In this document: positions 28,981-42,272 of the stretch, piece after piece | How the letters are laid out: every line of letters starts with the position of its first letter | Position numbering within the stretch: the first letter of the stretch is position 1 | Virus record (IMG/VR): IMGVR_UViG_3300033072_000473 | Span: 23,212-87,211 of that record | Length of the DNA: 64,000 nt | Strand: one strand, 5' to 3' | Origin: a virus | Lineage: Duplodnaviria > Caudoviricetes | Made by a program: the position numbers and the translations under genes | The notes under the pieces: model-generated | Database searches by the model: none | The model's input: only the letters and a program-made list of their open reading frames with translations | Told to the model about the DNA's origin: nothing

Positions 28981-29507
28981 TTAAAATACTTTCTAACCTC
29001 TTCAAAAGCTATAGGAATATAGTTAATACTCTCTACAGAAGCATTGAAGTAAAACGGGTCTATAACTTCTTGATTATACTTATTAGTTAGCATTACACGC
29101 TTATCGTGTAGATGCCCATGTACATTACCACGAAACCTACCTTGAGATTCAGGATGAACTGGAATATGACTAAAGATTAGCTTATCCATTACATGATAAG
29201 CTCTAATATCTCTAAAGTGCTCAGTATACTCTGTTAGCTTAAAAATATCATGGTTGCCCTTAATCAGAACTTTATCACCATTAAGACGATAAAGTGTAGA
29301 CATGGCACGACGGTTAATAACTACATCGCCCAGGTGGTAAACCTTATCACAAGGTCTAACCACACTATTCCAGTTTTCAACTAGAGCTTCATCCATTTCT
29401 TCTATAGTAGACCAAGGGCGTAGTTTTGTTACCCCATCTCTGCGTAGGAACTGCGTAACCCCTAAATGTCCAAAATGGGTATCTGATACTATAAAAATAT
29501 TAGCCAT
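28971..29507 (-). CDS. Calcineurin-like metallophosphoesterase
   Basis: SDTHFGH, HLGD, GNHD, SHIP, HGHLH. Confidence 0.9.
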   Translation of the reverse strand: MANIFIVSDTHFGHLGVTQFLRRDGVTKLRPWSTIEEMDEALVENWNSVVRPCDKVYHLGDVVINRRAMSTLYRLNGDKVLIKGNHDIFKLTEYTEHFRDIRAYHVMDKLIFSHIPVHPESQGRFRGNVHGHLHDKRVMLTNKYNQEVIDPFYFNASVESINYIPIAFEEVRKYFKGD

Positions 29508-29520
29508 TGTATTCTTTCAA

Positions 29521-29583
29521 CAGGATCGACCTTTTACAAGTCAGATTAGCAGTCTGGTGTATTTTATTTGCTGAAACGATCCT
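29521..29583 (-). ncRNA. CAGCAA-motif RNA, copy A (carries a Ser-GCU-type anticodon arm)
   Basis: AGGAUCG/CGAUCCU stem + UUUCAGCAA + CAGA-CUGCUAA-UCUG. Confidence 0.7.
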
Positions 29584-29593
29584 AAATAAGTAG

Positions 29594-29684
29594 TGGCGGG
29601 TCGAGAGAGAGTCGAACTCTCAAGGGCTTATTAGGCCTCGACTGTTTTCAAGACAGGTTCCATCGCCAATTGGATTGCCGACCC
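29594..29684 (-). tRNA. tRNA-Ser(UGA)
   Basis: Loop CT-TGA-AA; long variable arm; CCA. Confidence 0.92.
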
Positions 29685-29952: not shown

Positions 29953-30332
29953 TTACACTAATACTTTGCAGCGTTTAATACAGTTTTCAATTCTAGACCA
30001 TTGAACTTTTGTTAGGGCTGGATCAGAGCTTACAAATCTTTGTAAGTCATCTAGCGTGTCCTGTATTAGCTGAATTGCTTGAGTTTGAGGAATTTCTTGA
30101 AATTTCTTTTTAGCATGTTCCCAAGCTTCCTGCTCTAGCTCTTCTGCCCACGCTTTTTGTCCTGATCCCATTGTAGTTCTCTAAATTTAGAAATAAACGA
30201 ATGATATGCTACGTAGGGTGTAGTATGCACTAAAAACCATGCATAAAGTACTTGCTGTACTCTATGTTTAAGTGTTAGTGGATAAACGGTACGTAGAAAC
30301 TCTTTTTTGCTTTGAAACATAGTATTCTCCAT
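29953..30332 (-). other. Two small hypothetical CDSs (29953..30171; 30135..~30320)
   Basis: ORF track; SD GGAGA precedes ATG 30320. Confidence 0.55.
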
Positions 30333-30416
30333 CAGGATACTGTGCCTACCATTAGGCTTATCTCGCTAAGACGAAACAATGGAATCGAACCATTAAAAAT
30401 TTTGCTGAAAGTATCC
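30333..30416 (-). ncRNA. CAGCAA-motif RNA, copy B (YrlA-like permuted tRNA mimic)
   Basis: GGAUAC/GUAUCC stem + UUUCAGCAA, then T-arm, loop-closed acceptor-like stem, D-arm. Confidence 0.75.
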
Positions 30417-30422
30417 AAAAAT

Positions 30423-30540
30423 TGGCCCCGAAACTAGGATTCGAACCTAGAACCTCTCCATTACAAGTGGAAGTTAAAGATGCGGTAAATATTCTTACAG
30501 AATACTATTTTTAGCGCTCTACCGATTGAGCTATTTCGGG
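30423..30540 (-). tRNA. tRNA-Thr(UGU)-like gene with 42-nt insertion (30471..30512) at the 5' side of the anticodon stem
   Basis: Perfect acceptor, D and T arms and CCA; removing 42 nt restores CTCCA-CTTGTAA-TGGAG. Confidence 0.8.
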
Positions 30541-31422: not shown

Positions 31423-32838
31423 CTACAAACTATAACGATCGCTCATTACAGCTTTCAGCATAATTGCTTCAGGAGTAAATTCTTCTAAATCGCCACTAAG
31501 GACTGCCTTCATAATAGAAGGCGAGAATCCCGAAATAAGTGCCACGCCTTGTTGATTAAACTTAGCAGGAACATTATCATTGGCGTTTAGATTCCAAAAT
31601 ACAACTTTAGGCACTTGATAGCCAGCACGCTGATATTTGCTGGCAATCATTTGCATAGCATTATGGTCGTACTCAGCGCAATGATCGAACTGCATATCCG
31701 AAAGGATAAGCAAAATTTCAGGCATTTCGCTTTGTGGTACTTGATTTTTCACTGCTACACCCAGCACTTTATCAAAGGCCACATGTAGGTTAGTATTCAT
31801 ATTCCACAGAGATTTAACCATTTGTTGTGCACGCTGAACTACATCACCTTTGAGGCTAAGTAGTTCAGGAGTACCAGAGAAAGTAAGGAACAAATCCTTG
31901 AACTTACCCTGGTTCTTTTCACTAAGGTATAAGCCTAGTGAAACTGCAACATCCATGCAGGTAGTTGAACCTTTACTACCGGCTGCACAACTCATAGAGC
32001 CTGAAACATCTACCATCGGTAGAATACTTGCAGAACCTACGTAGTTTGGCAGCGCTTTCCACTGAGCTACAATCAAATCCTTTTGAGTTTGGTTATACTC
32101 AGCAGTATAATAAAGGTTAGCAACTCCCTTTAGCACGTCATAAGGGTAAACTGCACCAGCATTAACTTTTACAGTTTTATCGCCCTCTTTAAGTTTAGCT
32201 ACATATTCTGCGTACTTGGGAGTATTACGGAAAAATGCAGTCTTATAACGTGCATGTGCTAGACTAGGAACATGGGAGAAATTAATCTCTTCCCACTGCT
32301 TAGAGCACATTTGTTGTTCTACAACTTTAGTCAAATTGACTAGAGTTTTACGATAGAACTTTGGTGACCAACCAAGATACTGACGGAATTGTTCCGCCAC
32401 ACGGCCTTTACGTGGAGTCCACTTAGCCGCCAGACCGTTGCCTTCGGCAAGAGCTTGGCGCACTAGTTCGAACCCTACGTCTTGCATCTTAGGGGTTTGA
32501 AACGCAAACAAATCATCAAAGCGACCAAGGTCGGGAACCTTTTTAGCTAGACGAATTGCAGACTCCATATCATTCTTTTCCAGATATTGCAAAATATCAC
32601 GGAAAATCTGGCGTTCACCTACCCCTTGACGAATATCACGAACCCATTGTGCAATGCGTAGCGCAATATCCTTGTTCTCTACTAGAGCTGCGACAAAATC
32701 AGGAATAATATCCTTACCACGAGATGCACCAATCTTAAAGAAAAGATCAGTACAAGCATTTTCAGTTGCCTTAAATGCTTTCATCCCATTCTGGGTACGA
32801 ACTTCTTGATTTTGTACAGCTTGAGCAAAAGTAGTCAT
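31423..32838 (-). CDS. DUF2828-type protein: helical N-domain plus C-terminal vWA (Ro60/TROVE-like architecture)
   Basis: DLFFKIGASRG, WVRDIRQGVGER, AAKWTPR; MIDAS DVSGSM...TFS...TNL...LSDMQFD; VVFWNL. Confidence 0.8.
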   Translation of the reverse strand: MTTFAQAVQNQEVRTQNGMKAFKATENACTDLFFKIGASRGKDIIPDFVAALVENKDIALRIAQWVRDIRQGVGERQIFRDILQYLEKNDMESAIRLAKKVPDLGRFDDLFAFQTPKMQDVGFELVRQALAEGNGLAAKWTPRKGRVAEQFRQYLGWSPKFYRKTLVNLTKVVEQQMCSKQWEEINFSHVPSLAHARYKTAFFRNTPKYAEYVAKLKEGDKTVKVNAGAVYPYDVLKGVANLYYTAEYNQTQKDLIVAQWKALPNYVGSASILPMVDVSGSMSCAAGSKGSTTCMDVAVSLGLYLSEKNQGKFKDLFLTFSGTPELLSLKGDVVQRAQQMVKSLWNMNTNLHVAFDKVLGVAVKNQVPQSEMPEILLILSDMQFDHCAEYDHNAMQMIASKYQRAGYQVPKVVFWNLNANDNVPAKFNQQGVALISGFSPSIMKAVLSGDLEEFTPEAIMLKAVMSDRYSL

Positions 32839-32852
32839 TTTTTAAATATCTC

Positions 32853-32916
32853 CAGGTTAAGTTTTTGGTTTCTTGATAATTTGTAAGAAATTTCTGTTTA
32901 TTGCTGTAGTTAACCT
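32853..32916 (-). ncRNA. CAGCAA-motif RNA, copy D (abuts the SD of the DUF2828 gene)
   Basis: AGGUUAA/UUAACCU stem + CUACAGCAA. Confidence 0.7.
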
Positions 32917-32924
32917 AAAATCAA

Positions 32925-33053
32925 CGGGATGCTTTGTAACTGTTTATTAAACGAAAACCGTTACCCAAACGTTCGTCGACACCGATATCTATAAATAGAT
33001 ATCTGAAAGCCTCGACCATCTCCATAAGTGTATATGGTTGCTGAAGTCATCCC
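32925..33053 (-). ncRNA. CAGCAA-motif RNA, copy E
   Basis: GGGAUG/CAUCCC stem + CUUCAGCAA; internal hairpins GAUAUCUAU-UU-AUAGAUAUC and GUAAC...GUUAC. Confidence 0.7.
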
Positions 33054-33058
33054 AAAAC

Positions 33059-33132
33059 TGGTTGCGAGGCCCGGATTCGAACCGGGAATTTTGGCTTATG
33101 AGACCAAACGGATGCCTTTTCCACACCTCGCG
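33059..33132 (-). tRNA. tRNA-fMet(CAU), initiator-like
   Basis: C1:A72 mismatch; loop CTCATAA; CCA. Confidence 0.85.
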
Positions 33133-35811: not shown

Positions 35812-36132
35812 TGGTACCCGTGGCCGGAATCGAACCGGCATGCTTGCGCGAGGGATTTTAAGCGGTTATGTCCTAAAGTTTCCTAAAGGCCCGGACTATC
35901 TCTTTACCTTCAACACTACTTGTTAAGGTAGTGGGCGTTCTTGCTGGTTATTAAGAGGGCTAAACCTCTCCAGTAGTCTCTACACCTTCCAATACTGTAG
36001 TATTGGCTTGGCTCGCGATTGCCATTTTACAGACTCTCCCGAATTAACCCACAGTTTATCTAACTATTTCTAATTAGAGGGGACTATCAGTTTCTGCTGA
36101 TCCCTTGTGTCTTCCTATTTCACCACACGGGC
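35812..36132 (-). tRNA. tRNA-Leu(UAA) interrupted by a group I intron
   Basis: Exon 1 GCCCGTG...AGGGA(T); exon 2 CTTAAAATCCCT...ACCA. Confidence 0.88.
35863..36099 (-). mobile_element. Group I intron (~237 nt, no ORF)
   Basis: P7 elements GAGACUAC / GAUAGUCC, P1 GGGAU/GUCCC with U-G pair, P9 GAAA hairpin, terminal AUAACCG. Confidence 0.88.
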
Positions 36133-36133
36133 A

Positions 36134-36850
36134 TTATGTTCCATAATGCTTTAAGTTATACTCTTCTAGATCTATTCTGTTTCCTTTTGCAATATTCTCT
36201 TCTGGAGTTAAATATTGCAGATTGGCAACAACGTGTAGCCCAGATACTAGCTCACCTTTTAATGGTAATATATGATCTACATGTAACCCTTTAGGGCAGT
36301 TCCTATAAAATTCTTGTAAACCTTTTATATCTTCCCAATTAACGCACCGTAAAGAACGTTCACCTTTATAGTGCTGATTTCGCTCTAGAATTTTAGTATA
36401 ATTCTTTTCATAAGACCGTTTATGTGCTTCTTTAGTACTGTCTTTTGAATACGCAATTTTATTTAATTCTTTTCTACAACTTTTACAATAATGGTGTCTA
36501 CCACAAGTTGCACTATTGTCTATATCAAATTCTTTGAAGGTCTTTATCTCTCTACAGGAGATACAAAGTTTATACTCAATAAATATTAGTAATTTCCACT
36601 TCCAAGTTTCGTTGCCGCCGTTTAGCTTTCCAAATTTTGGAACAAAGTATTCATCTAATACTCTATTAATGGTTTGCGCACCTCTATTCAATAGTTTAGC
36701 AGCTTTTGGTATTGTACCTTGCTCAAGTATGGCTAAAATCATATCACCGGCCAATACTTCGGCAGTATTGGATCTAGCCTTTCTTAGCACTGTATTATAC
36801 TCTAAATTAAGTTTATTAAGTATTAAAGTTGTTAATTCTTGATTTGTCAT
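36134..36850 (-). CDS. Free-standing HNH endonuclease
   Basis: CISC...CKSC Zn motif; CPKGLHVDHILPLKGELVSGLHVVANLQYL; SD GGAGG before ATG 36850. Confidence 0.88.
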   Translation of the reverse strand: MTNQELTTLILNKLNLEYNTVLRKARSNTAEVLAGDMILAILEQGTIPKAAKLLNRGAQTINRVLDEYFVPKFGKLNGGNETWKWKLLIFIEYKLCISCREIKTFKEFDIDNSATCGRHHYCKSCRKELNKIAYSKDSTKEAHKRSYEKNYTKILERNQHYKGERSLRCVNWEDIKGLQEFYRNCPKGLHVDHILPLKGELVSGLHVVANLQYLTPEENIAKGNRIDLEEYNLKHYGT

Positions 36851-36908
36851 TTGTGTCCTCCATTTAAATATTATAAATTTAGAAGACATAAAAGTCAAAT
36901 TTAATTTT

Positions 36909-36992
36909 TGGTACCCTCGGTCGGACTCGAACCGACACGCAACTAAGCCCAGGGCCTAAACCTGGTGGATATACCAATTCTCCTACGAGGGT
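36909..36992 (-). tRNA. tRNA-Leu(UAG)
   Basis: CCAGG-TTTAGGC-CCTGG; variable arm; CCA. Confidence 0.92.
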
Positions 36993-36994
36993 AT

Positions 36995-37722
36995 AGTATA
37001 GGAAATTGTTCTTCGTCTACTTCACATGCACTTCTTGAAACCTACAAGTACTAGCGTGTGCCATGTTTTTCGATCTCGCTCAGAAGTAGGTTCTAGCGTT
37101 ATCTCTCCGAGATCTATTTAGACTAGATATACTAAGGGCATGACTCCCGTTCTACTATTAGAATAAATAAACTCTGCGTTAAGAACAATTTACTATACTG
37201 ACAGGCACTCCATACTGTCATTAGGGGACGGGTATCGCAATCCACACGGGGTTCATTTGTCATGGTAACTACCTAGTATCACGGGAACTCCTACCCGAGT
37301 CTAGACTAATTGGGAATACTAGTAACGGCTTTCTGTTATCTCATAATTCAGTAGCTCACCAAACCCATTGGCCTTGTCACATAAGTCGCCCAAATATGAG
37401 TCGGGTCGAAACAGAGTACTTGGTCTACGGCTTGTTACCAGTATAGTTAAGAAGCATCTTTGGCTGTCCCGAAGTTCGAAAACAAGGTAAAGTCCTACAA
37501 GTTGCTTCTTGACTATACCGCCTCCGCCGAGGCATTGTGGTATAGTGTTAGTGATACCTAAGGTAATCCGCACTCCTTTGTATCCCCTAAAAGGGCTGAG
37601 ACTCGAACTCAGTCGGTATTAAGTATCTTTTAAAGGTCTTGCTAACTTCCGACCCCCTAGTCTAACTGTCGACAAGTTACTAGGATTTAGTCTGATTCTT
37701 TGTTTATCTTTCGCCGAATCAG
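36995..37722 (-). ncRNA. Large ornate ncRNA candidate (~720 nt; GOLLD/ROOL-like in size and context)
   Basis: Own promoter (TTGTTT-17-TATAAT, 37730..37758); 16-18 bp long-range stems; T-arm mimic; no credible ORF; ends at tRNA-Leu. Confidence 0.75.
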
Positions 37723-37766
37723 AAATAATATTATACGCTAATAGTTAGCGATAAACAAGTCAAAAT

Positions 37767-38768
37767 TTACTTATTCATTAGCATCATCATCATGAGCATA
37801 TTTTGATCCATCTGCTTTCCGCCCATCATGCTCATCATAGCAAAAGTTTTCATATCAAACTCTTTGCCGTCGCCCATCATCATAGCCATCATCATAGGAT
37901 TGGTATTTTCACCAAACATATTCTTAACGGCTAGAACAGTATTCTTACCGAAGAATAGGTTGGTTACTTGCCCAACCTGCTTTACTTCGCCGTTAAGCGT
38001 AACTACTTCATAGCCACTTTCAGTTTTCTGCTTGAAGAAATAGGCATCTTGCCCGCTAATGATAATGTCCCCTTCTTCTAGCGTTTCTACAGCCACTCGC
38101 ATAGCAAAAGCTGGTACTTTAACACCAAAATCAGTAATAGGATTAACGGAAACGCCACCATCAACGTAGACAGAAATCCCGTCTTGGGACTGTACACCGA
38201 ACTTTCCTGATTGGATGTCGATTGCAACATTCTTGACCTCACGAAAGAAAGAGTCACGCATATTAGATTGAATGTTCATTTGTGTATCCTTAGATTTATT
38301 AAGCTGTTCGTTAACGTATTTTTTAGTTGCTACTTCTTCACCATTTACTACTAAGTTTCCAGTAGTGTTGCTAGTTAAATTAGCAAAGCGCTTAGAGGTT
38401 CCTGAAGCTGCAAAAGTATATGCCGCAGTATTTTGTAGTGAAGAAGGAAGTCGTTGAAGAATTAAGTAGTTAGGAGTATATTTAGTGATAGTGTATTTAG
38501 CACCGTAACCGGCGAGTGTTTGTGCTGCTGCTACCTCATATTGAGGTATATCAGCATTGCGAATATACGCAACATGTACACCCTTAATCAACACTGCGTA
38601 GGCCTGCCCATTAACTCCATTAGTATTATACTCATGTTTAATCTCAACCTCAGGTTTAATACTACCTGGATCATTAATTTGAGGAATAAAACTTTTTAGG
38701 TATTCTTGATCTTGCGTAGGTCTAAACCGCATACCTACTGCAATTAATTTATCTGGATATGAGGACAT
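37767..38768 (-). CDS. Hypothetical protein with HIRAN-like N-terminus and Met-rich C-terminus
   Basis: LIAVGMRFR...EHEYN...AYAV...HVAYI; tail NPMMMAMMMG...LMMMMLMNK. Confidence 0.65.
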   Translation of the reverse strand: MSSYPDKLIAVGMRFRPTQDQEYLKSFIPQINDPGSIKPEVEIKHEYNTNGVNGQAYAVLIKGVHVAYIRNADIPQYEVAAAQTLAGYGAKYTITKYTPNYLILQRLPSSLQNTAAYTFAASGTSKRFANLTSNTTGNLVVNGEEVATKKYVNEQLNKSKDTQMNIQSNMRDSFFREVKNVAIDIQSGKFGVQSQDGISVYVDGGVSVNPITDFGVKVPAFAMRVAVETLEEGDIIISGQDAYFFKQKTESGYEVVTLNGEVKQVGQVTNLFFGKNTVLAVKNMFGENTNPMMMAMMMGDGKEFDMKTFAMMSMMGGKQMDQNMLMMMMLMNK

Positions 38769-38783
38769 TTTTATCTCTTAAAA

Positions 38784-38875
38784 TGGTAGAAGCGGCAGGA
38801 ATCGAACCTGCATTGGCCAATTATCTATTGCACACGGGATATAAGTCCGCTGTTTTACCGTTAAACTACGCTTCC
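38784..38875 (-). tRNA. tRNA-Ile(UAU)-like with long variable arm
   Basis: GGAAGCG/CGCTTCT; loop CT-TAT-AT; 22-nt variable region with CAAT/ATTG stem; CCA. Confidence 0.8.
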
Positions 38876-42164: not shown

Positions 42165-42272
42165 ATTAATCTCCAGTATCCCGCTTACTTTATACGGGAA
42201 CCACTACGCGGGTTAGTGTAATTACGCGGACGCCTTTTACGTAGCCTCCAACGATCCTAAGGTGGATTCTAT

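What the first reader, a model, noticed from the sequence alone, without database searches (positions are those of the whole stretch)
36995..37722. ~720-nt ornate ncRNA with its own promoter, upstream of tRNA-Leu
Seen: no credible ORF; stems 36996-37013/37181-37198 (17 of 18 bp) and 37441-37456/37503-37518 (15 of 16 bp); hairpins UCUGAUUC/GAAUCAGA and GACAG/CUGUC; T-arm mimic CUGAG-UUCGAGU-CUCAG at 37596-37612. Established: GOLLD and ROOL are giant structured RNAs often found next to phage tRNAs. Inference: a GOLLD/ROOL relative or a new large RNA class.
Basis: partly seen in the sequence, partly recalled or inferred. Interest (0 to 1): 0.75.

Follow-up and report, generated by a model that had tools for sequence, protein, structure and literature searches.

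The report
Large phage RNA with tRNA mimic
A roughly 730-base non-coding RNA gene in a phage's tRNA cluster is real and folded, but it is not a GOLLD/ROOL relative: its front part mimics a tRNA the way bacterial Y RNAs (YrlA) do, its middle holds a new conserved 135-base module, and the phage also encodes a Ro60-like ring protein nearby.

Summary
Window 36993-37766 (RNA on the minus strand) has no open frame under any code. It has a phage-type promoter and runs without a terminator into tRNA-Leu(UAG). No Rfam family matches at E<=10, so GOLLD, ROOL, OLE, raiA and YrlA membership are not supported. The element occurs in every close relative whose contig reaches that far (74-96% identity). It is better conserved than the flanking genes. 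Covariation supports two modules. (1) A four-way junction (37627-37553): closing stem, T arm, acceptor-like hairpin, D-like arm. This is the permuted order that defines the YrlA tRNA mimic. (2) Module M (37446-37316), a three-way junction also found in a distant phage, where it again follows a tRNA-like element. Both phages carry a DUF2828 gene 4-5 kb downstream on the same strand. For the window's copy the predicted fold matches Ro60/Rsr. My reading is a giant composite Y-RNA-like transcript, or a precursor of several such RNAs. The 3' 320 nt have no covariation support. Binding and expression are untested. This scan has noted DUF2828 genes with small tRNA-mimic RNAs in many other phages, but not this large RNA.

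The parts
37731..37763 (-). Promoter: -35 TTGACT (37763-37758) or TTGTTT (37758-37753); -10 TATAAT (37736-37731); transcription start near 37725
   Evidence: Sequence. The -10 region TAGCGTATAATATTATTT recurs at least 10 times on one strand in related phages G002/G003. It is invariant in all 5 copies of the element. The simple promoter scan did not list it because the TTGACT-TATAAT spacing is 21 nt.
37691..37723 (-). 5'-terminal hairpin UCUGAUUC / GAAUCAGA with a 17-nt loop
   Evidence: A hairpin right after the promoter is also present in distant relative L002, which lacks the element.
37656..37684 (-). Hairpin 2: CCUAGU...ACUAGG with inner stem AACU/AGUU
   Evidence: Compensatory change to CCUAAU/AUUAGG in L033. 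The inner stem is AAUU/AAUU in L037.
37635..37654 (-). Near-invariant element GGUC-GGAAGUUAGCAA-GACC (H3). Its loop GUUAG (37646-37642) pairs with CUAAC (37551-37547), just 3' of the tRNA-like domain
   Evidence: 18 of its 20 positions are invariant in all 5 copies. All three substitutions that hit the GUUAG:CUAAC pairing keep it: U-A to A-U in L037, A-U to G.U in L001, G-C to G.U in L033. It contains GUCGGAAG, which resembles but does not match the YrlA motif GNCGAAN0-1G (PMC4201824).
37553..37627 (-). tRNA-like four-way junction in YrlA order. Closing stem GAUACU/GGUAUC (37627-37622 / 37558-37553); linker; T arm CUGAG-UUCGAGU-CUCAG (37612-37596); acceptor-like hairpin CCCU-UUU-AGGG (37595-37585); D-like arm AAGG-AGUGCGGAUUA-CCUU (37578-37560)
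   Evidence: RNAfold alone gives the same architecture for the window, L033 and L037 although the stems differ in sequence. A model built from the window group alone finds L033 (53 bits) and L037 (46 bits). 3 pairs in the closing stem and 4 of 5 in the T stem show compensatory change, 97% of cells are paired, and 0 of 500 shuffles reach this.
37520..37533 (-). Small hairpin GCCUC-GGCG-GAGGC
   Evidence: The stem is invariant and the only changes lie in the loop (L032, L037).
37441..37519 (-).
   Evidence: z -3.7. In L037 the stem keeps pairing through several changes on both strands. The tip differs in length and sequence in every lineage and carries a UUCG loop in 4 of 5 copies, as read on the minus strand.
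37316..37446 (-). Module M, a three-way junction. P1 is AUACUGGUAAC/GUUACUAGUAU. There are two arms whose loops are complementary (CUCAUA 37394-37389 with UAUGAG 37345-37340). The motif AUAA-CAGAAAGC follows
   Evidence: It is homologous to L002:2424-2561 (nhmmer E 2e-6; model R1 131 bits). On 6 sequences, 12 pairs show compensatory change, 97.7% of cells are paired, and 0 of 500 shuffles reach this. Loop-loop complementarity is also present in L002 with other letters (UUCCG/CGGAA); shuffle p is 0.026 and 0.047.
37200..37315 (-). Middle region, including hairpin GACAG-UAUGGAGUGC-CUGUC
   Evidence: 95-96% identical to L001. The substitutions cluster in one predicted loop. There is no covariation to test a fold.
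36995..37199 (-).
   Evidence: z -2.0. The closing stem is invariant in 4 distinct full-length copies, and the interior is not supported by covariation.
36909..36992 (-). tRNA-Leu(UAG), co-transcribed. RNase P cleavage at its 5' end would define the 3' end of the large RNA (inferred)
   Evidence: ARAGORN; Rfam tRNA 53 bits; no terminator-like site between the element and the tRNA.
31423..32838 (-). Context: DUF2828+DUF7788 protein with a predicted Ro60/Rsr-like fold (candidate protein partner)
   Evidence: Pfam. AlphaFold model, pLDDT 72.7. The top 11 Foldseek PDB hits are all Ro60/Rsr/TROVE, including Thermus phage phiLo Ro60 at TM 0.57-0.58.

Best explanation
This is a phage gene for a structured non-coding RNA on the minus strand. 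It is transcribed from its own promoter near 37725 and continues without a terminator into tRNA-Leu(UAG), so RNase P cleavage at the tRNA's 5' end would release about 730 nt. The RNA is modular. The 5' third holds a near-invariant 20-nt element followed by a four-way junction that copies the T arm, acceptor stem (closed as a hairpin) and D arm of a tRNA. The order is stem, T, acceptor hairpin, D, stem, which is the permuted layout that defines the tRNA-like domain of bacterial and phage YrlA Y RNAs. The middle holds module M, a 135-nt three-way junction with complementary loops and a CAGAAA/CAGCAA motif. M is shared with a distant phage, where it also follows a tRNA-like element. The same phage encodes a Ro60-like ring protein 4.2 kb downstream on the same strand. 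Shown here: no coding capacity, conservation, covariation in the two modules, and the Ro60-like fold. Inferred: the RNA, whole or after processing into pieces, is a partner of the Ro60-like protein. It would work as Y RNAs do, as a tether that presents a tRNA-shaped surface to tRNA-handling or RNA-repair/decay enzymes during infection.
For: Non-coding; 1-nt indels between copies. Conservation: 92.5% identity overall to L001 and 95-98% outside one hairpin tip, against 86-89% for the flanking ORFs and 97% for the tRNA and the intron. Distribution: present in all relatives with ORF333 at 77% identity or more whose contig reaches the site, namely L001, L032, L033, L037 and L039-L044. tRNA-mimic junction: independent MFE folds agree in three lineages; the stems covary; the T loop is UUCGAGU/UUCGAAU/UUCGAGC; the D-like loops carry A-R...GG...A. 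YrlA layout and its placement within about 4 kb of Ro60 on the same strand: Chen et al. 2014 (PMC4201824). M. Ro60-like fold. The distant phage with M also has a DUF2828 gene about 5 kb downstream on the same strand. Another unit in this genome (E2, 30426-30330) has a CAGCAA 'handle' stem enclosing T arm, hairpin, hairpin in the same order.
Against: The Rfam YrlA model does not hit the element even at E<=10. The YrlA 5' motif GNCGAAN0-1G is not matched exactly. The D-like arm differs greatly between lineages, L033 carries the reverse complement of part of the window's arm, and L032 breaks one D-stem pair. The transcript is about six times the size of known Y RNAs (80-130 nt). The tRNA-like domain lacks the CAGCAA motif that the small units near the Ro60-like gene carry. 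Only about three independent lineages support each covarying module, and the model-fitted alignments lean towards the structure. The 3' 320 nt have no covariation support and ordinary folding energy. There are no expression or binding data, and the host is unknown.
Confidence: 0.6

Rival explanations
1. It is a polycistronic precursor rather than one large RNA. The transcript would be cut into several independent small RNAs: a roughly 110-200-nt tRNA-mimic Y-like RNA, hairpin V, the 135-nt M RNA, a 3' RNA and tRNA-Leu. On this view the '730-nt ornate RNA' never acts as a unit.
For: M exists as a compact unit next to a tRNA-like element in L002 without the other domains. The modules are closed by their own stems. 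The L033 acceptor-like hairpin is 7 bp, the length at which M. smegmatis YrlA is cut by RNase P (PMC4201824). Phage tRNA operons are processed by RNase P (general knowledge).
Against: All domains are kept together and in order in every full-length copy seen. There are no internal promoters or terminators of note. The motif ACUAUAC/GUAUAGU alternates five times across the domains, giving possible inter-domain pairings.
Confidence: 0.3
2. It is a divergent GOLLD or ROOL relative: a giant RNA that assembles into RNA-only cages.
For: Its size, its phage origin and its position beside tRNAs resemble what is reported for GOLLD and ROOL (10.1101/2024.12.08.627333, listed; PMC5737381).
Against: There is no match to any Rfam family at E<=10 in the window copy or the divergent L033 copy and no ROOL hit in the genome. 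The modules found here (tRNA mimic in YrlA order, M) are not features I know of in those families.
Confidence: 0.03
3. It is a cis-acting leader of the tRNA-Leu operon, a processing or stability element with no function in trans.
For: In L002 the same promoter and 5' hairpin drive tRNA-Leu(UAG) directly, with a 105-nt leader. The element sits exactly in that leader.
Against: 650 nt of conserved, covarying structure, including a tRNA mimic and a module shared with another locus type, is far more than tRNA leaders need. M in L002 is not in a tRNA leader; it follows tRNA-Ala and precedes an ORF.
Confidence: 0.05
4. It is a remnant of selfish DNA (a decayed tRNA gene, intron or homing-endonuclease cassette), kept similar between phages by recent transfer rather than by selection.
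For: The locus is a hot spot. An HNH gene and a group I intron lie just downstream. The same ORF333 allele (323 aa) is linked to a 78%-type element in L033 and a 94%-type element in L039, which shows recombination.
Against: The copies diverge down to 74% identity yet keep their helices through compensatory changes. Variation is concentrated in hairpin tips. These patterns indicate selection on RNA structure.
Confidence: 0.02

Closest known systems
YrlA-type Y RNAs of bacteria and mycobacteriophages, partners of Ro60/Rsr (Chen et al. 2014, PMC4201824; Rfam RF02553)
   Same: The tRNA-like domain has the same permuted order: stem, (V), T arm, acceptor-like hairpin, D arm, stem. The T loop keeps the tRNA consensus. 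The RNA is encoded on the same strand as a Ro60-like gene, a few kb away. A conserved short element lies just 5' of the domain.
   Different: There is no hit to the YrlA covariance model. The GNCGAAN0-1G motif is absent (GUCGGAAG instead). The protein is DUF2828, Ro60-like by predicted fold only. The domain is embedded in a roughly 730-nt transcript fused to a tRNA operon, against 80-130 nt for known Y RNAs.
Small 'handle' RNAs beside DUF2828 genes in many phages
   Same: E2 (30426-30330) has a closing stem enclosing T arm, hairpin, hairpin, as here. M carries a stem strand followed by 3-4 nt and CAGAAA/CAGCAA, like the handle GGAUCG-UUU-CAGCAA.
   Different: The tRNA-like domain here has no CAGCAA next to its closing stem. 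In M the partner strand lies upstream inside another hairpin loop, so the pairing is loop to loop. The size is 6 times larger. Whether the motif binds the protein is untested anywhere.
GOLLD and ROOL giant RNAs
   Same: Large, ORF-free, phage-borne and next to tRNA genes.
   Different: No sequence or structure match. This element is confined to one narrow clade. No evidence of multimer formation.
Stable RNAs C and D of the phage T4 tRNA cluster (from my own knowledge, not checked here)
   Same: Non-tRNA stable RNAs co-transcribed with phage tRNAs and released by tRNA-processing enzymes; function unknown.
   Different: They are much smaller (about 120-140 nt), and I know of no link to a Ro60-like protein or a tRNA mimic.
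Three-way-junction RNAs with kissing loops, such as the purine riboswitch aptamer (architecture only, from my own knowledge)
   Same: M has a closing helix plus two arms whose loops are complementary.
   Different: No sequence similarity and no Rfam hit. There is no expression platform or regulated gene downstream.

Membership tests
GOLLD / ROOL / OLE / raiA (Rfam) | Match to the family covariance model | tested here: not met
   cmscan of 36850-37850 against all 4227 families at E<=10 found only tRNA-Leu plus chance snoRNA/sRNA hits. The same holds for the divergent copy L033. A ROOL search of the whole phage found no match, though its control genomes were also silent.
YrlA (Y RNA-like A) | Conserved T stem-loop with a tRNA-type T loop | tested here: met
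   CUGAG-UUCGAGU-CUCAG in the window; GCUGG-UUCGAAU-CCAGC in L033, with 4 of 5 pairs compensatory. The Rfam tRNA model aligns the L033 T arm (15 bits).
YrlA (Y RNA-like A) | [quoted passage not shown] | tested here: met
   A hairpin starts directly after the T stem in every lineage, each with a different sequence: CCCU-UUU-AGGG, CCC-UUGA-GGG, a 7-bp AUCGGGG/UCCCGAU hairpin in L033, and GCGG-GCGA-CCGU.
YrlA (Y RNA-like A) | Conserved D stem-loop with tRNA D-loop nucleotides | tested here: inconclusive
   A hairpin with loop A-R..GG..A is present in each lineage (AGUGCGGAUUA, AAAAGGUAA, AGUGGAC). Stems and lengths differ, the model could not align them, and L032 breaks one pair.
YrlA (Y RNA-like A) | GNCGAAN0-1G motif near the 5' end (putative Ro60 contact) | tested here: not met
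   The closest sequence is the invariant GUCGGAAG at 37653-37646, which has one extra G. The motif definition is from PMC4201824.
YrlA (Y RNA-like A) | Encoded within about 4 kb of a Ro60 orthologue on the same strand | tested here: met
   The Ro60-like gene at 32838-31423 lies on the same strand, 4.2 kb from the element's 3' end and 4.7 kb from the tRNA-like domain. It is Ro60-like by predicted fold only; Pfam calls it DUF2828/DUF7788, not TROVE.
YrlA (Y RNA-like A) | Match to Rfam RF02553; size 80-130 nt | tested here: not met
   RF02553 hits in this genome fall only on adjacent tRNA pairs, none on the element. The transcript is about 730 nt unless it is processed.
tRNA | Cloverleaf with paired 5'/3' acceptor ends and an anticodon arm | tested here: not met
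   ARAGORN and Rfam tRNA call nothing in 36993-37724. The acceptor is a closed hairpin, and the anticodon arm is replaced by the open closing stem.
Phage DUF2828-associated 'handle' RNAs (scan-internal, unpublished) | Closing stem whose 5' strand is followed by about 3 nt and CAGCAA | tested here: inconclusive
   Canonical units exist in this window. The element's tRNA-like domain lacks the motif. M has UAUGAG-AUAA-CAGAAA (window) and CGGAA-UAC-CAGCAA (L002), with the partner strand upstream.

The most novel reading that the evidence does not exclude
The 730-nt transcript acts as one giant Y-type scaffold RNA. Module M, with its kissing loops and CAGMAA motif, would dock the phage's Ro60-like ring. 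The tRNA-mimic junction and the further domains would recruit host tRNA-processing, repair or decay enzymes. That would make it a Ro/Y ribonucleoprotein several times larger and more modular than any described, built into a tRNA operon and matured by RNase P.
Probability: 0.25. Interest if true: 0.8.

Novelty: new variant of a known kind. Interest (0 to 1): 0.6.

Why it matters
Y RNAs are known as small (80-130 nt) tethers for Ro60. How phages use Ro60-like proteins is almost unstudied. Here a tRNA mimic with the YrlA layout is embedded in a much larger, multi-domain RNA that is hard-wired to a tRNA gene, in a phage that has a Ro60-like gene, a tmRNA and 23 tRNA genes called in this window. 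If the RNA binds that protein, Ro/Y particles would extend to large modular scaffolds, and there would be a tractable handle on what phage RNA-surveillance systems do during infection. Module M is also a new, covariation-supported RNA motif absent from Rfam. The limits are a very narrow distribution, an unknown host and no experimental data.

Tried and rejected
(1) Homologues by DNA. blastn against 50,697 phage records found only the tRNA-Leu. Degenerate pattern scans for M in viral, metagenome and genome collections gave only the three known contigs plus chance hits in coding DNA. A protein-anchored scan of bacterial genomes found nothing. (2) My first model of M included a hairpin GCCAA-UGGGU-UUGGU. 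I dropped it because L001 and L033 break it, while the alternative AAGCC/GGGUU helix covaries. (3) I read the T-arm region as a canonical-order decayed tRNA (D, anticodon arm, T). I rejected this because the acceptor strands do not pair and the closing stem with the T, hairpin, D order is what covaries. (4) I first read L031 as a close relative lacking the element. That was wrong: L031 has a 100-N scaffold gap exactly there. (5) L005/L006 have long ORF-free transcripts at the syntenic place, but no similarity to the element beyond the promoter and no hit with either model. (6) Sequence homology between the L002 tRNA-like element and the window's is not significant beyond the T loop. (7) Thermodynamic z-scores do not support 'ornate' folding of M, the T region or the middle region. 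(8) I tested recoded or small-ORF readings and rejected them. (9) RF01998, which I took for GOLLD from memory, is a group II intron family. GOLLD is covered only by the all-family scan.

Full report
SETTING. The window is part of an 87-kb phage contig from IMG/VR, estimated 83% complete. Around the finding all genes lie on the minus strand. The region is an RNA-gene island with 23 tRNA genes in the window, a permuted tmRNA, and a group I intron. The finding occupies the 774-nt gap between a 333-aa ORF (37767-38768, no Pfam match) and tRNA-Leu(UAG) (36909-36992).

OBSERVATION.
- The two long stems are 19 nt at 95% and 20 nt at 90% complementarity.
- The T-arm mimic reads CUGAG-UUCGAGU-CUCAG on the minus strand at 37612-37596.
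- The longest ORF is 84 aa. No frame opens when any single stop codon is read through. Copies differ by 1-nt indels.
- The promoter is plausible. TATAAT at 37736-37731 sits in the stretch TAGCGTATAATATTATTT. That stretch recurs at least ten times on one strand in two related phages and is invariant in all copies of the element.
- No terminator-like site separates the element from tRNA-Leu.
- Folding energy of the whole region is ordinary on the minus strand (z -0.34). Only the two long hairpins stand out.

KNOWN FAMILIES. A relaxed cmscan of the region against all 4227 Rfam families returned only the tRNA at E<=10. The same was true for the most divergent copy. ROOL searched alone found nothing, but its control genomes were also silent. 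The YrlA model hit only adjacent tRNA pairs elsewhere in the genome. GOLLD/ROOL kinship is therefore not supported.

RELATIVES. DNA searches of phage records, viral contigs, metagenomes and bacterial genomes gave almost nothing. Anchoring on the neighbouring proteins worked.
- The element is present in L001 (96% identity in aligned columns) and L032 (91%).
- It is present in L039-L044 (93-94%).
- It is present in L033 (79%, 5' 527 nt only) and L037 (74%, 5' about 420 nt only).
- These are all the relatives whose ORF333 is at least 77% identical and whose contig reaches the site.
- L031 has a 100-N scaffold gap exactly there.
- More distant relatives lack the element (L002, L005/L006, L035, L036, L038). 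In L002 the same promoter plus 5' hairpin lead straight into tRNA-Leu(UAG) after 105 nt.
- Against L001 the element is 95-98% identical outside one hairpin tip. The flanking ORFs are 86-89% identical, and the tRNA and intron are 97%.

tRNA-LIKE DOMAIN. L033 and L037 show that the T arm is one arm of a four-way junction.
- The junction has a closing stem (window GAUACU/GGUAUC; L033 GAUAGAUA/UAUUUAUC; L037 GAUUAUG/CAUAAUC), a 7-10-nt linker and the T arm.
- The T arm is followed directly by a hairpin that differs completely in sequence in each lineage.
- Then comes a D-like hairpin whose loop reads A-R..GG..A, and then the 3' strand of the closing stem.
- RNAfold alone returns this architecture for all three lineages.
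- A covariance model built only from the three near-identical window-type copies finds L033 (53 bits) and L037 (46 bits). It aligns the closing stem and T stem with 3 and 4 compensatory pairs. Overall 97% of cells are paired, and 0 of 500 shuffles match this.
- The order stem, T, acceptor-like hairpin, D, stem is the layout Chen et al. 2014 described for the tRNA-like domain of YrlA Y RNAs (PMC4201824).
- Seven nucleotides upstream lies a near-invariant 20-nt element, GGUC-GGAAGUUAGCAA-GACC. Its loop GUUAG pairs with CUAAC just 3' of the junction. All three substitutions that hit these ten positions preserve pairing, and one is a true compensatory pair.
- Weak points: the D-like arm is poorly conserved, the YrlA 5' motif is not matched exactly, and the YrlA model does not score the region.

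Its tip is replaced in every lineage and carries a UUCG loop in four of five copies, as read on the minus strand. This fits selection on an RNA hairpin on that strand.

MODULE M. nhmmer found that window 37433-37328 is homologous to L002:2436-2542 (E 2e-6 to 4e-6).
- In both phages this core is closed by a long stem of unrelated sequence: 11 bp in the window and 16 bp in L002.
- RNAalifold and a model built on it give a three-way junction. On six sequences, 12 pairs show compensatory change, 97.7% of cells pair, and 0 of 500 shuffles match.
- The loops of the two arms are complementary in both lineages but with different letters: CUCAUA/UAUGAG against UUCCG/CGGAA. Shuffle p values are 0.026 and 0.047.
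- The second loop strand is followed by AUAA-CAGAAAGC (window) or UAC-CAGCAAGC (L002).
- In L002, M directly follows a mini-tRNA-like element with acceptor, D arm, a stub anticodon arm and a T arm.
- There is one M per genome, and none in the other relatives.

PROTEIN CONTEXT. The 471-aa ORF at 31423-32838 matches DUF2828 and DUF7788. An AlphaFold model (pLDDT 72.7) finds only Ro60/Rsr/TROVE structures as its top 11 Foldseek hits in the PDB, including the Ro60 of Thermus phage phiLo at TM 0.57-0.58. The gene lies 4.2 kb downstream of the element on the same strand. The L002 phage also has a DUF2828 gene about 5 kb downstream of M on the same strand. Near the gene in this window are small units with a closing stem followed by YUN-CAGCAA. 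One of them, E2, encloses a T arm and two hairpins in the same order as the domain studied here. Earlier notes of this scan report such DUF2828-plus-'handle RNA' pairs in many other phages. Those are unpublished AI leads. Here I checked only the protein fold and the presence of the motifs.

THE 3' HALF. The middle region and the 205-nt 3' domain are well conserved among the 91-96% copies, but those copies carry too few changes. No covariation supports any fold beyond the invariant 19-bp closing stem. No divergent copy reaches this part.

INTERPRETATION. Shown: a promoter-driven, non-coding, conserved RNA gene with two modules supported by covariation, one of them a tRNA mimic in YrlA order, in a phage with a Ro60-like gene. 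Inferred: it is a Y-RNA-like partner of that protein, either as one large scaffold or as a precursor of several RNAs, matured at its 3' end by RNase P cleavage of tRNA-Leu. It fails the formal YrlA membership tests (model, motif, size). I therefore class it as a new variant of the Ro60/Y-RNA kind, not as a member of YrlA and not as a relative of GOLLD or ROOL.

Noticed in passing
window 30330-30426 (-), 29500-29595 (-), 32840-32925 (-), 32940-33062 (-): Small units with a closing stem whose 5' strand is followed by YUN-CAGCAA (GGAUAC-UUU-CAGCAA...GUAUCC and similar). E2 encloses a T arm (AAUGG-UUCGAUU-CCAUU) and two hairpins. They lie around the Ro60-like gene.
   Followed up: partly
window 42225-42268 (-); L001:1705-1750; L002:2307-2350: A roughly 45-nt motif, AAUCCACCUUAGGAUCGUU..ACGUAAAAGGCGUC, is conserved across distant phages. 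It directly follows an endonuclease ORF in the window, tRNA-Trp in L001 and tRNA-Ala in L002. Function unknown.
   Followed up: no
L002:2340-2425: A mini-tRNA-like element in canonical order (9-bp acceptor CUGACUAGA/UCUAGUCAG, D arm, 3-bp stub in place of the anticodon arm, T arm UGUGAG-UUCGAGC-CUCACA), not called by ARAGORN, lies immediately upstream of module M.
   Followed up: partly
L005:3975-4950; L006:3955-5325: Downstream of the ORF333 homologue, two promoter-driven ORF-free stretches (about 150 and about 780 nt, the latter ending in a terminator-like hairpin) have no Rfam hit. In L006 a 249-aa ORF replaces 212 nt of the long one.
   Followed up: partly
L031:4026-4125: A scaffold gap of 100 N lies exactly where the element would be, flanked by the promoter start and by '...ctatact' plus tRNA-Leu. 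The inverted repeats or strain variation probably broke the assembly.
   Followed up: no
window 36909-36992 (-): The tRNA-Leu(UAG) next to the element starts A1...U72 (ACCCUCG/CGAGGGU) and is very unlike the tRNA-Leu(UAG) of L031, L002 and L005 (GCG.../GGG...). The element and this tRNA allele travel together.
   Followed up: partly
window 37543-37536, 37520-37513, 37449-37441, 37200-37192, 37003-36994 (-): The 7-8-nt words ACUAUAC and GUAUAGU alternate five times along the RNA, so each could pair with either neighbour. This gives possible alternative folds or inter-domain contacts. All copies are invariant, so nothing can be tested by covariation.
   Followed up: partly
L033 vs L039 (ORF 323 aa): The 323-aa form of the ORF333 homologue is linked to a 79%-type element in L033 and a 94%-type element in L039-L041, which shows recombination between element alleles and flanks.
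   Followed up: no
window 35812-36898 (-): An HNH-type ORF (254 aa by the ORF listing; no Pfam match, homologues named McrA by one source) lies between the two tRNA-Leu genes. A group I intron hit (35872-36099, 59.6 bits) lies in the region of tRNA-Leu(UAA). Relative L031 has the two tRNA-Leu genes adjacent, without either.
   Followed up: partly
window 38784-38875 (-) vs L001: The 92-nt tRNA-Ile(UAU) region is only 39% identical to L001 with 35 gap columns, and ARAGORN calls no tRNA there in L001, although both flanks are 80-89% identical.
   Followed up: no
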